A DNA stretch of 64,000 nucleotides from Candidatus Omnitrophota bacterium (GTDB lineage: Bacteria; Omnitrophota; Gorgyraeia; JAHIPI01). Shown piece after piece: positions 47,741-48,436 of the stretch. The notes under the pieces are model-generated. The model worked only from the letters and a program-made list of their open reading frames with translations, did no database searches and was not told where the DNA came from. The DNA is taken from NCBI GenBank assembly GCA_018894435.1, contig JAHIPI010000027.1:1552-65551 (forward strand), read 5' to 3'. A program made the position numbers and the translations under genes. The stretch's first letter is position 1; every line of letters starts with the position of its first letter.

Positions 47741-47767
47741 GGGTCAGACCCCGATTATGTTAACTAC
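47741..47767 (+). repeat. REP (family A) abutting the 3' end of the RAYT gene
   Basis: gggtcagaccccgattatgttaactac; overlaps the last codons and stop of the RAYT. Confidence 0.8.
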
Positions 47768-48347
47768 AGTCCATTAGTAGTGCCTCATATTCTTTTTTTG
47801 CCATATCTATATCGTCATTCAACATCTTAAGTATAAAAGTGGCATCAACCAACCCATCGTCCATGCTGCTTGGTAAGTAGCTTTTTATCGAAGAATATTT
47901 ATAATCTCTGGGGTCTTGACAGAGTCCGTGTTTTAGCGGATTCCTATGAATATACCTGCTTACCCCTAAAAGATACCTATCATCTTTTATGATCTTTGAC
48001 TTATATCGTCCTTCGAATACATGGCCGGTCCTGCCAAATTTTTTATTATAATACATTGTAAAGCTGGTATTTACACATTGCATAATTTTTGAAACGAGGG
48101 CTTTCTCGGAAGCTTCCATAAGGAGATGTATGTGGTTAAGAATAAGGCAGTAACAATATAATTTATATCCAAACCTTTCCTTATAGCCTTTTAAGATCTC
48201 CATATATCTATTAAAACAATCTGTATCAATAAAGACATTTTCGCGATTATTGCCGCGAATCATCAGGTGGCAGGGGATGCCTGCCGCTTCCATCCTAAGT
48301 GGCCTGGCCATAAAAACTCCTTTGTTCGTTTGTATAACTGCTCTCAT
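47760..48347 (-). CDS. REP-associated tyrosine transposase (RAYT; IS200/IS605-like Y1 HUH transposase)
   Basis: 195 aa. HUH motif LNHIHLL. Tyrosine motif GHVFEGRYKSKIIKDDRYLLGVSRYIHRNP. Flanked by inverted REPs at 47741 (+) and 48409 (-). Confidence 0.75.
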   Translation of the reverse strand: MRAVIQTNKGVFMARPLRMEAAGIPCHLMIRGNNRENVFIDTDCFNRYMEILKGYKERFGYKLYCYCLILNHIHLLMEASEKALVSKIMQCVNTSFTMYYNKKFGRTGHVFEGRYKSKIIKDDRYLLGVSRYIHRNPLKHGLCQDPRDYKYSSIKSYLPSSMDDGLVDATFILKMLNDDIDMAKKEYEALLMDCS

Positions 48348-48408
48348 ATATATATACGAACAAGGGAGCTATTTTCTTTCAAAAATTATTTTATTTTTTC
48401 ATTTTAGC

Positions 48409-48436
48409 GTAGTTTACATAACGAGGGTCTGACCCC
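48409..48436 (-). repeat. REP (family A), inverted orientation, 60 bp upstream of the RAYT start
   Basis: gtagtttacataacgagggtctgacccc. Confidence 0.8.

What the first reader, a model, noticed from the sequence alone, without database searches (positions are those of the whole stretch)
47741..48436. RAYT (REP-associated Y1 transposase) gene flanked by inverted cognate REP elements
ORF 47760..48347 has the HUH motif (NHIHLL) and the Tyr-containing GRYKS...RYIHRNP region typical of IS200-like/RAYT Y1 transposases. It is bracketed by family-A REP units in opposite orientation (47741 plus strand, 48409 minus strand). Each REP carries the conserved 5' GTAG tetranucleotide (GTAGTTTACAT...) that RAYTs are known to recognise. 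The same REP occurs at 9 further sites in the window, so this is very likely the enzyme that disseminates them.
Basis: partly seen in the sequence, partly recalled or inferred. Interest (0 to 1): 0.6.

Follow-up and report, generated by a model that had tools for sequence, protein, structure and literature searches.

The report
Tyrosine transposase gene with its repeats
A single-copy, conserved HUH/tyrosine 'transposase' gene in an uncultured Omnitrophota bacterium sits between two inverted copies of a 28-base repeat that is also scattered through the neighbourhood; this is a new example of a known but little-studied kind of system, not a new one.

Summary
Window 47741-48436 is a 696-bp unit: a Y1/HUH gene bracketed by two inverted copies of GTAGTTWACATAAYSRGGGTCTGACCC. 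The repeat has 13 copies at 11 loci in 64 kb, against 0 expected. The real start is probably ATG 48311 (183 aa), not 48347.

It is wrong in detail. The repeat is not a canonical REP. Its GTAG lies 12 nt from a weak 4-bp hairpin, and GTAG varies between lineages. The feature shared across the family is the outer end, GGGGTCAG, which is the GGGGWSAS signature of TIRYT/TIRtron elements (Di Nocera 2013; Quentin 2018, subclass 2.1). Of 64 metagenomic relatives, 57 are flanked by inverted repeats, most starting GGGGTCAG.

- The gene occupies the same site, next to thiL, in four lineages, with dN/dS about 0.1.
- Repeat cores at orthologous sites are 97% identical on a backbone about 80% identical.
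- The closest sister genome lacks the gene at this site and has 1 repeat where the window has 10.
- Both clean insertion polymorphisms are two-armed hairpin forms, as in REPINs.
- A conserved leader hairpin sequesters the ribosome-binding site.

Verdict: a new, short member of a known kind, of moderate interest.

The parts
48409..48436 (+). Upstream terminal inverted repeat (REP-like unit, 'ACGA' subtype). The inner end GTAG faces the gene; the outer end GGGGTCTGACCCC faces away.
   Evidence: Pattern match; sequence. The same position and orientation are seen in L002, L008, L101, L003, L017, L018 and L019.
48315..48370 (-). Leader hairpin whose 3' arm contains the Shine-Dalgarno AAGGAG (48317-48322). 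The predicted effect is translational repression.
   Evidence: RNA fold -23.7 kcal/mol, z -4.8. Equivalent hairpins with different stem sequences occur in L002, L003, L017 and L019 (z -5.1, -2.6, -5.2, -8.1). Whether the anti-SD arm is transcribed was not shown.
47760..48311 (-). Y1/HUH tyrosine transposase-like gene, 183 aa (TIRYT-type RAYT relative, short form). The longest ORF would start at 48347 (195 aa).
   Evidence: PF01797, 59 bits. Profile hit to 4ER8. AlphaFold2 pLDDT 92.9. Foldseek top hit 4ER8. dN/dS 0.09-0.11 against orthologues. The 183-aa form is annotated in NCBI.
48126..48134 (-). HUH motif (H60-I61-H62 of the 183-aa protein), the metal-binding part of the active site.
   Evidence: H60 and H62 are invariant in a 40-sequence alignment and align with HMH of E. 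coli TnpA_REP.
47952..47954 (-). Predicted catalytic tyrosine (Y120, in RYIHRNP).
   Evidence: Aligns with Y115 of 4ER8 in DYIYINP. At least 90% conserved.
47741..47767 (-). Downstream terminal inverted repeat ('ATCG' subtype). It overlaps the last codons and supplies the TAA stop of the gene.
   Evidence: The same arrangement is seen in L002, L008, L101 and L019.
15153..15206 (.). Head-to-head dimer of the repeat (CTAC|GTAG junction): a REPIN/MITE-like 54-nt imperfect palindrome.
   Evidence: ssDNA fold -19.1 to -19.8 kcal/mol, z about -8.
23551..23604 (.). Second head-to-head dimer, 98% identical to the first.
   Evidence: family D11. Absent from the sister genome L100, which has a different palindromic repeat at this site.
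21344..21391 (-). Short-arm two-armed form: GGGGTCAGACCCC + 7 nt + full unit. It is an insertion polymorphism.
   Evidence: A roughly 49-nt insertion relative to the 90%-identical sister L100, with no repeat there. Fold -13.8 kcal/mol, z -5.3.
40343..40396 (-). Short-arm two-armed form between ilvN and ilvC.
   Evidence: An orthologous copy is in L002 at 17983. Absent in L101.
45528..45573 (-). Short-arm form at the 3' end of tsaB. It supplies the tsaB stop codon (the TAG of GTAG). It is an insertion polymorphism.
   Evidence: About 47 nt that are absent in L002 and present in L101/L102.
45916..45963 (-). Short-arm form inside tsaB, in frame (16 codons, ELYSGHRSLHNGGLTP), in the inter-domain loop.
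   Evidence: Conserved in L002, L013, L101 and L102. The loop position is shown by alignment to E. coli TsaB.
14156..14182 (-). Single unit. Its TAG is the stop codon of ORF 14179..15138.
49134..49160 (+). Single unit (1 mismatch) upstream of pseudopilin gene 48501..49112.
49892..49918 (+). Single unit overlapping the mtnA 3' end (encodes VRPSLCKLR) and upstream of pseudopilin gene 49180..49872. It shares 21 extra nt with the RAYT leader.
   Evidence: family D7, 90% over 49 nt.

Best explanation
The 696-bp unit is a 'TIRtron'. It is a vertically inherited, single-copy Y1/HUH endonuclease gene of the TIRYT branch of the RAYT family (Quentin subclass 2.1-like), here in a short 183-aa form without the usual C-terminal HTH/DnaA_C domain. 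It is bracketed by its own 28-bp terminal inverted repeats.

**Shown**
- The protein has the TnpA_REP-like fold, with an intact HUH motif and catalytic Tyr, and is under purifying selection.
- Its ends are conserved and change together with the protein across relatives.
- Copies of the ends are dispersed as singles, head-to-head dimers and short-arm two-armed forms.
- These copies are gained and lost between close relatives.
- The copies are almost absent from the sister genome that lacks the gene at this locus.

**Inferred**
- The enzyme binds the end sequence on single-stranded DNA. The likeliest determinant is the family-wide outer motif GGGGTCAGAC, which is self-complementary and pairs with its partner arm into a 13-27-bp hairpin.
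- It cleaves and rejoins DNA through a 5'-phosphotyrosine at Y120, with metal held by H60/H62.
- It thereby moves or copies the two-armed hairpin units, as proposed for REPINs, without target duplication, while the gene itself no longer moves.
- A leader hairpin that buries the Shine-Dalgarno sequence keeps its translation low, as in IS200.
For: - **Protein.** PF01797, 59 bits. Profile to 4ER8 TnpA_REP E=5e-8, against 0.07 for ISDra2 TnpA. hhalign aligns HUH and Y120 with Y115. AlphaFold2 pLDDT 92.9 and Foldseek top hit 4ER8, TM 0.66/0.73, against 0.46-0.50 for IS200/IS608.
- **Repeat.** 13 copies against 0 expected.
- **Flanking repeats in close relatives.** Inverted repeats flank the gene in the same geometry in relatives of 51-92% identity, with concordant changes: GTGTCTGACAC on both sides in L003, and GTACTTGACATAATCT on both sides in L018.
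- **Flanking repeats in distant relatives.** 57 of 64 relatives (35-46% identity) have flanking inverted repeats scoring 13 or more, against 0 of 64 shuffled controls. 29 fit GGGGWSAS strictly. This signature is reported for TIRYTs (PMC3733652; PMC6006769).
- **Fixed position.** Same locus next to thiL in the window, L002, L008 and L101/L102. dN/dS 0.09-0.11 at dS 0.34-0.57.
- **Conserved cores.** Orthologous repeat cores are 97.1% identical. Window against L002: 3 differences in 108 nt, P about 1e-7 at 20% divergence.
- **Sister genome.** Contig JAZDNG010000041.1 (89-94% identical, collinear over about 45 kb) has no gene between mtnA and thiL. It has 1 repeat against 10 in the window.
- **Insertion polymorphisms.** Both are two-armed forms.
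- **Leader.** SD-sequestering hairpins in 5 lineages.
Against: - No biochemistry exists for any TIRYT that I could find; only 2 papers in the library use the term. Cleavage, strand specificity and the recognised motif are therefore inferred by analogy with E. coli TnpA_REP and IS608.
- The single unit has only a weak hairpin.
- The palindrome is not strictly maintained: GTGTCTGACCC in L017 and L019 carries a mismatch.
- The protein lacks the HTH/DnaA_C domain said to be present in all subclass 2.1 TIRYTs (PMC6006769).
- Genome-wide copy numbers of the gene and the repeat could not be counted.
- The sister MAG could carry a copy of the gene elsewhere or on an unbinned contig.
- It is not shown that the anti-SD arm of the leader is transcribed, and no convincing sigma-70 promoter was found.
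Confidence: 0.75

Rival explanations
1. Canonical RAYT/REP system. The enzyme recognises the 5' GTAG tag next to a REP hairpin, as E. coli TnpA_REP does.
For: GTAG is present in all 13 window copies. Dimers are head-to-head at GTAG, as in GTAG REP families (PMC3733652, Table 1). The best structural and sequence match is 4ER8. NCBIfam REP_Tyr_transpos is the best NCBIfam hit.
Against: - GTAG lies 12 nt from a 4-bp stem.
- At the gene flanks of relatives it is GAAG, AAAG or GTAC.
- The GTAG-reading residues are not conserved: F, E, S, K, K.
- The score is below the NCBIfam cutoff.
- The wider family is flanked by GGGGTCAG-type inverted repeats with unrelated inner ends.
Confidence: 0.12
2. An autonomous insertion sequence (the whole 696-bp unit still transposes), with the dimers as its MITE derivatives.
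For: The unit has IS-like geometry: gene, 28-bp terminal inverted repeats, and gene-less two-armed derivatives. It is absent from the closest sister genome at this site.
Against: - One copy in 64 kb.
- The same junction with thiL in four lineages whose backbones are 67-87% identical.
- Strong purifying selection over dS of about 0.5.
- The sister site is not a clean empty site; it is filled by other repeats.
- The NCBIfam IS200 model scores 22.7 against a cutoff of 55.
Confidence: 0.08
3. The repeats are host regulatory or structural elements (terminators, mRNA stabilisers, protein-binding sites) that spread by other means. Their position next to the Y1 gene is incidental.
For: - Copies sit in short gaps between co-directional genes and often supply stop codons.
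- Cores are conserved at orthologous sites, which could reflect a host function.
- The repeats rarely proliferate in the 8-kb neighbourhoods of distant relatives: more than 2 copies in only 7 loci.
Against: - The flanking arrangement is conserved in 57 of 64 distant relatives and all 7 close lineages with adequate flanks.
- The two flanks change together (L003, L018).
- The repeat is nearly absent where the gene is absent.
Confidence: 0.05

Closest known systems
TIRYT / TIRtron (Di Nocera et al. 2013, PMC3733652), equated with TnpA_Y1 subclass 2.1 (Quentin et al. 2018, PMC6006769)
   Same: - A RAYT-like Y1 gene flanked by terminal inverted repeats rather than canonical REP hairpins.
- The outer end GGGGTCAG fits their GGGGWSAS consensus.
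- The downstream repeat overlaps the 3' end of the gene (their '3'ov').
- Repeat copies occur as singles and dimers.
- The nearest sequence relatives carry Bac_DnaA_C tails and GGGGTCAG-type inverted repeats.
   Different: - The protein is a short form (183 aa) with no HTH/DnaA_C domain.
- The repeat carries an inner GTAG and a self-complementary outer 13-mer.
- Repeat density is high (13 in 64 kb), whereas most TIRtrons are reported without repeat families.
- The host is Omnitrophota, which is not in those surveys.
E. coli TnpA_REP (RAYT) with REP/BIME, PDB 4ER8 (Messing et al. 2012, PMC3479197; Ton-Hoang et al. 2012)
   Same: - Best structural and profile match.
- HUH and catalytic Tyr align.
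- Single-copy gene between inverted repeats that are dispersed in the genome.
   Different: - Only 15-19% identity.
- GTAG is not at the foot of a hairpin.
- The GTAG-contact residues are not conserved.
- The score is below the NCBIfam equivalog cutoff.
REPINs of Pseudomonas and Enterobacteria (Bertels & Rainey 2011, PMC3116915; Bertels et al. 2017, PMC5581495)
   Same: - Two inverted units forming a hairpin appear to be the mobile unit: both clean insertion polymorphisms are two-armed.
- The enzyme gene is single-copy and vertically inherited.
- Repeats are scarce where the gene is missing.
   Different: In that work only Group 2 and 3 RAYTs were linked to abundant flanking repeats. This protein belongs to a different branch, and its arms join directly at GTAG with no spacer.
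IS200 / IS608 TnpA (IS200/IS605 family)
   Same: Shares the Y1/HUH fold. The SD-sequestering leader hairpin resembles the known translational repression of IS200 tnpA; this comparison rests on my own knowledge (Beuzon et al. 1999) and was not checked here.
   Different: - The ends are inverted rather than direct left/right hairpins.
- Single copy, at a fixed chromosomal site.
- The IS200 model scores far below its cutoff.
- Lower structural similarity than to 4ER8.
Rickettsia palindromic elements and intragenic REPs
   Same: In-frame insertion of a palindromic repeat into an essential gene (tsaB), tolerated in a loop.
   Different: Here the element has an identifiable cognate Y1 gene. Only one internal case is seen in the window.

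Membership tests
Y1/HUH transposase superfamily (Pfam PF01797) | HUH metal-binding motif and catalytic tyrosine in a Y1_Tnp domain above the Pfam cutoff | tested here: met
   59.1 bits against a cutoff of 23. H60 and H62 are invariant, and Y120 is at least 90% conserved. Both align to HMH and Y115 of 4ER8.
Y1/HUH transposase superfamily (Pfam PF01797) | TnpA-type fold | tested here: met
   AlphaFold2 pLDDT 92.9. Foldseek hits to 4ER8, 2F4F, 2XMA and 2A6M all have probability 1.00.
Canonical RAYT / TnpA_REP (REP-associated subclasses 2.2, 2.4, 2.5, 2.7, 2.8; Bertels groups 2 and 3) | Flanking repeat is a REP: 5' GT[AG]G at the foot of a stem-loop | tested here: not met
   GTAG lies 12 nt from a 4-bp stem. 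Single unit -3.6 kcal/mol, z -1.3. GTAG is replaced by GAAG, AAAG or GTAC in relatives.
Canonical RAYT / TnpA_REP (REP-associated subclasses 2.2, 2.4, 2.5, 2.7, 2.8; Bertels groups 2 and 3) | Conserved GTAG-recognition residues (W94, Q95, E100/D, H101/R, R104 of E. coli) | tested here: not met
   hhalign places F, E, S, K, K at these positions.
Canonical RAYT / TnpA_REP (REP-associated subclasses 2.2, 2.4, 2.5, 2.7, 2.8; Bertels groups 2 and 3) | NCBIfam equivalog NF047646 above its cutoff | tested here: not met
   72.4 bits against a cutoff of 80.
RAYT in the broad sense (Nunvar 2010; Bertels 2017) | Gene bracketed by inverted copies of a repeat that is over-represented in the genome | tested here: met
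   Two flanking units plus 11 more in 64 kb, against 0 expected. A genome-wide count was not possible.
RAYT in the broad sense (Nunvar 2010; Bertels 2017) | Single copy, vertically inherited, under purifying selection | tested here: met
   One copy in the window. The same locus in four lineages. dN/dS 0.09-0.11. Copy number in the whole genome was not tested.
TIRYT / TIRtron (Di Nocera 2013) | RAYT-like gene flanked by terminal inverted repeats that are not canonical REPs | tested here: met
   27-29-nt inverted repeats at 47741 and 48409. The same holds in 57 of 64 relatives, against 0 of 64 controls.
TIRYT / TIRtron (Di Nocera 2013) | Terminal repeat carries the GGGGWSAS motif | tested here: met
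   The outer end is GGGGTCAG. The strict motif is found in 29 relatives and the relaxed motif in 35.
TnpA_Y1 subclass 2.1 (Quentin 2018) | C-terminal HTH domain (Bac_DnaA_C, HTH_23 or HTH_28) | tested here: not met
   PF01797 is the only Pfam hit in 183-195 aa. Many relatives of 38-51% identity do carry PF08299.
TnpA_Y1 subclass 2.1 (Quentin 2018) | Assignment by the authors' subclass HMMs or tree | not testable with these tools
   Their profiles are not available here. The assignment rests on nearest relatives and repeat type.
IS200/IS605 insertion sequence | IS200 TnpA equivalog; multiple copies; left and right end hairpins on the same strand | tested here: not met
   NF033573 scores 22.7 against a cutoff of 55. 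Single copy. The ends are inverted.
REPIN (two inverted units forming a hairpin as the mobile unit) | Two-armed hairpin copies that are polymorphic between close relatives | tested here: met
   Dimers fold at -19 kcal/mol, z -8. The 21344-21391 and 45528-45573 two-armed forms are absent in L100 and L002 respectively. Actual transposition was not shown.

The most novel reading that the evidence does not exclude
A minimal TIRYT without an HTH domain is an active, domesticated disseminator of its own terminal repeats in Omnitrophota. This would be the first comparative evidence that the TIRYT/subclass 2.1 branch drives a dense REPIN-like population, a branch for which the published surveys found few or no cognate repeat families and the library search turned up no biochemistry. 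In this reading the enzyme recognises GGGGTCAG rather than GTAG. The 27-nt repeat core is actively maintained (97% identity on an 80% backbone), even inside the essential gene tsaB. The repeats are lost once the gene is lost.
Probability: 0.3. Interest if true: 0.55.

Novelty: new member of a known kind. Interest (0 to 1): 0.38.

Why it matters
RAYT/REPIN systems are the best-known case of a domesticated transposase that maintains a population of short mobile hairpins. They have been worked out almost only in Gammaproteobacteria. The TIRYT branch is widespread but has been described only by two genome surveys, with no biochemistry that I could find.

This locus offers a compact test case of 183 aa and a 28-nt end. 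It comes with a natural control: a 90%-identical sister genome that lacks both the gene at this site and nearly all the repeats. It also offers clean filled-versus-empty sites and a testable recognition question, GGGGTCAG against GTAG.

There is a practical point for metagenomics too. These repeats break assemblies: the Logan contig that carries this gene ends inside the repeats on both sides. They also add spurious-looking C-terminal tails and internal peptides to housekeeping genes.

Tried and rejected
- **Single-sequence phmmer against PDB.** It found nothing. A 40-sequence profile was needed to reach 4ER8.
- **RNAalifold on the leaders.** It failed twice. The first attempt used the wrong start coordinates. 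The second failed because MAFFT cannot align the length-variable loops. I relied on individual folds instead.
- **Sigma-70 promoter scan.** It gave no site upstream of the gene. A conserved TTTTTGAA(A/C)GAAA box precedes the leader hairpin, but its spacing to TATATA (20-22 nt) does not fit a sigma-70 promoter, so the promoter is unassigned.
- **Compensatory change in the 11-nt outer palindrome.** I considered it as proof of a hairpin. L003 is compensated (GTGTC..GACAC), but L017 and L019 are not (GTGTC..GACCC), so this evidence is weak.
- **The dimer site 23551 and the mtnA-thiL gap as 'empty sites' in the sister genome.** Both are occupied there by other repeat families. Only 21345 and 45529 are clean.
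- **GC skew.** It is uniformly negative on the plus strand but confounded by gene orientation, so no conclusion on strand-specific insertion.
- **Genome-wide repeat count.** The GTDB representative scan returned only 11 stretches in 4 MAGs and not the window's own genome, so this count could not be done.
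Full report
**1. What is in the sequence**

- The minus-strand ORF 47760..48347 exists. It is a Y1_Tnp domain protein: PF01797, 59.1 bits against a cutoff of 23.
- The longest ORF is 195 aa. However, an ATG at 48311 follows AAAGGAG-N5, the orthologue P0001 starts there, and NCBI annotates the 183-aa form (MBU4377114.1, 'transposase', Candidatus Omnitrophica MAG, 67,077-nt contig). I therefore take 47760..48311 as the gene.
- The pattern GTAGTTWACATAAYSRGGGTCTGACCC occurs 13 times in the window, against 0.00 in 100 shuffles.
- Two copies bracket the gene in inverted orientation, at 47741-47767 and 48409-48435. 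Their GTAG ends face the gene and GGGGTCWGACCCC faces outward.
- The downstream copy overlaps the last codons and supplies the TAA stop.
- The window holds no second Y1 gene.

**2. Anatomy of the repeat family**

- A single unit has almost no structure of its own: -3.6 kcal/mol, z -1.3, a 4-bp stem in the outer 11-13-nt palindrome. GTAG lies 12 nt from that stem.
- The copies fall into three forms:
  - Two head-to-head dimers, joined CTAC|GTAG, at 15153-15206 and 23551-23604. These are 54-nt imperfect palindromes (-19 kcal/mol, z about -8).
  - Four 'short-arm' forms at 21345, 40344, 45529 and 45917. Each is GGGGTCAGACCCC + 7-12 nt + a full unit, and folds with a 13-bp stem.
  - Five singles: the two gene flanks, 14156, 49134 and 49892.
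- All copies lie in tight operons of minus-strand genes. Seven loci overlap the 3' end of the upstream ORF and supply its stop codon or a short tail. Examples are mtnA ending ..VRPSLCKLR* and tsaB stopping at the TAG of GTAG.
- One copy lies inside tsaB in frame (16 codons). It sits in the loop where E. coli TsaB has 'RKNGATRV'.

**3. The protein**

- Single-sequence search of the PDB found nothing.
- A 40-sequence profile hits E. coli TnpA_REP (4ER8) at E=5e-8, and IS200-type TnpA only at E=0.07.
- hhalign aligns HIH with HMH, and Y120 (RYIHRNP) with Y115 (DYIYINP).
- The AlphaFold2 model is confident (pLDDT 92.9). Its best PDB match is 4ER8 (TM 0.66/0.73), ahead of IS200, ISDra2 and IS608 TnpA (TM 0.46-0.50).
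- NCBIfam REP_Tyr_transpos scores 72.4, below its cutoff of 80. The IS200 model scores 22.7 against 55.
- The five residues that contact GTAG in E. coli (W94, Q95, E100, H101, R104; PMC6006769) align to F, E, S, K, K.

**4. Relatives and their flanks**

- *Same locus in four lineages.* Orthologues of 89-92% identity sit next to thiL in three other assemblies: L002, L008 and L101/L102. Each is flanked by the same repeat. The surrounding DNA is only 67-87% identical.
- *Selection.* dN/dS is 0.09-0.11 at dS 0.34-0.57.
- *Flanks that change together.* Relatives of 51-61% identity (L003/L004, L017, L018, L019) are also bracketed by inverted repeats in the same geometry, but with changed sequences. 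L003 has GTGTCTGACAC on both sides. L018 has GTACTTGACATAATCT on both sides. Elsewhere the inner tetranucleotide is GAAG or AAAG.
- *GTAG is lineage-specific.* The invariant parts are TTRACATAA and GTCTGAC.
- *Distant relatives.* A metagenome scan returned 80 relatives of 35-46% identity. Of the 64 with adequate flanks, 57 have flanking inverted repeats scoring 13 or more, against 0 of 64 shuffled controls. Most begin (T)GGGGTCAG, and a smaller set carries a GGGGAC motif, typically GGGGACGGTTCT.
- *C-terminal tails.* Many of the nearest homologues carry a C-terminal Bac_DnaA_C domain.

**5. Comparison with the literature**

- Di Nocera et al. (PMC3733652) named RAYT-like genes flanked by terminal inverted repeats TIRYTs, and the units TIRtrons. 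They noted a shared GGGGWSAS motif, overlap of the repeat with the 3' end of the gene, and occasional dispersed families with dimers.
- Quentin et al. (PMC6006769) equate TIRYTs with subclass 2.1 of TnpA_Y1. That subclass has a C-terminal HTH/DnaA_C domain and no canonical REPs. Canonical REPs, with GT[AG]G at the foot of a hairpin, belong to subclasses 2.2, 2.4, 2.5, 2.7 and 2.8.
- The window element fits the TIRtron definition: GGGGTCAG is an instance of GGGGWSAS. It lacks the HTH domain.
- Bertels et al. (PMC5581495) found abundant flanking repeats only for their RAYT groups 2 and 3.
- Only two papers in the library use the term TIRYT. One paper mentions both RAYT and Omnitrophota, with a single passing use of RAYT; I did not read it, and I found no described RAYT/REP system in that phylum.

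**6. Does the enzyme go with the repeats?**

- *The sister genome.* The window's closest relative is contig JAZDNG010000041.1 of GCA_043800065.1. It is 89-94% identical and collinear with about 45 kb of the window. Between mtnA and thiL it has no Y1 gene; unrelated repeats occupy the gap.
- *Repeat counts there.* The whole contig holds 1 exact repeat, the in-frame tsaB copy, where the window holds 10. The whole MAG gave 3 exact matches, none next to a Y1 gene.
- *Direction of change.* The more distant lineages L002, L008 and L101 have the gene at this site, so the sister most likely lost it.
- *Gain and loss of individual copies.* The ilvN-ilvC copy is shared by the window and L002, but L101 lacks it and the sister contig has no exact match. 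The tsaB 3' copy is shared by the window and L101 but missing in L002.
- *Conserved cores.* Repeat cores at orthologous sites are 97.1% identical overall. Window against L002 shows 3 differences in 108 nt, P about 1e-7 at 20% divergence. The short arm inside tsaB decays.
- *What moves.* The two clean filled-versus-empty comparisons are 21344-21391 against L100 and 45528-45573 against L002. Both are two-armed forms of 47-49 nt, with no evident target duplication. This points to a hairpin unit as the thing that moves, as in REPINs.

**7. Expression**

- Between the upstream repeat and the start codon, the RNA folds into a hairpin whose 3' arm is the Shine-Dalgarno sequence (48315-48370; -23.7 kcal/mol, z -4.8).
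- L002, L003, L017 and L019 have the same arrangement with different stem sequences: CCUCCUUUUUU/AAAAAAGGAGG in L003 and CCACCUCUAUCU/AGAUAGAGGUGG in L019 (z -5.1, -2.6, -5.2, -8.1). L018 and the truncated L016 do not show it.
- From my own knowledge, this resembles the translational repression described for IS200.
- The promoter was not located, so whether the anti-SD arm is in the mRNA remains an inference.

**8. Verdict**

- It is mis-assigned in detail. This is the TIRYT/TIRtron branch, the repeat is not a canonical GTAG-hairpin REP, and the likely recognition determinant is the outer GGGGTCAG motif.
- It is a new, short, repeat-rich member of a known but little-studied kind.
- Catalysis, the strand used and the recognition site are all inferred.

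Noticed in passing
window 18849-18874, 30984-31009, 52148-52173: A second palindromic repeat family, GTAG-NGGACNTTWAANGTCCN-CTAC: a perfect 26-nt 'double-foot' GTAG hairpin. Its stem varies by compensatory changes (GCGGAC/GTCCGC, GAGGAC/GTCCTC, GGGGAC/GTCCCC). It has 3 sites against 0 expected. It looks more like a canonical REP than the family studied here, yet no second Y1 gene is in the window.
   Followed up: partly
window 48437-49918; L008 741-790; L002 9143-9903; L101 8818-10000: Two DUF1559-type pseudopilin genes (48501-49112 and 49180-49872) lie between mtnA and the Y1 gene. Each is preceded by a repeat unit in the same orientation. L008 and L101 have mtnA-repeat-gene with no pilin gene, and L002 has one. 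Window 49871-49919 is 90% identical to 48388-48436, so the repeat plus 21 nt of leader was duplicated. This suggests gene insertion or recombination at the repeat.
   Followed up: partly
window 45916-45963 (inside tsaB 45552-46274): An in-frame 16-codon repeat insertion in the essential gene tsaB is kept in five assemblies (window, L002, L013, L101, L102). Its 27-nt core is almost unchanged while the short arm decays. It is also the only copy retained on the sister contig, which lacks the gene at the syntenic site.
   Followed up: yes
L013 5850-6140; L100 9910-10000: The sister genome carries other palindromic repeat families at the same intergenic spots where the window has this repeat. Examples are AAAGGGGACGTTTCACTTTAAC..., in two roughly 90-nt tandem copies, and TTTAATAGGGACACATCCCATTTT / AAAATGGGATGTGTCCCCATTAAA. 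The GGGGACG motif recalls the second group of flanking repeats among the distant relatives.
   Followed up: no
window 19911-19970, 25709-25814, 39257-39328: Arrays of a 7-nt unit (AGCTNTC / CAGCTNT), present in both orientations at three intergenic sites (families D8, D9, I6, I13, I23).
   Followed up: no
window 5488-7608: A tandem repeat of 336 nt with at least 6 copies, 61-85% identical (families D1, D2). It is presumably a repetitive coding region. In addition, 1-300 and 2434-2733 are 85% identical direct repeats (family D3).
   Followed up: no
window 11231-11271 and 33048-33088: A 41-nt inverted pair, 90% complementary, each with an internal GC-rich palindrome (TGAGATTGCTTCGTCCCGCCAAGGCGGGACTCGCAATGACA, I2). 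A similar ...CGCAATGAC... tract lies next to a repeat in L006.
   Followed up: no
L001 (Logan contig of SRR11548473), both ends: The short-read contig carrying the identical gene ends inside the repeat on both sides, corresponding to window 48432 and 45527. The repeat therefore breaks assemblies, which fits a high copy number in that genome.
   Followed up: partly
window 48380-48395 and the same position in L002, L003, L008, L017, L018, L019: A conserved box, TTTTTGAA(A/C)GAAA/TAAT, lies immediately upstream of the leader hairpin in all close relatives. Its spacing to the TATATA in the hairpin loop is 20-22 nt, which does not fit a sigma-70 promoter. Its role is unknown.
   Followed up: no
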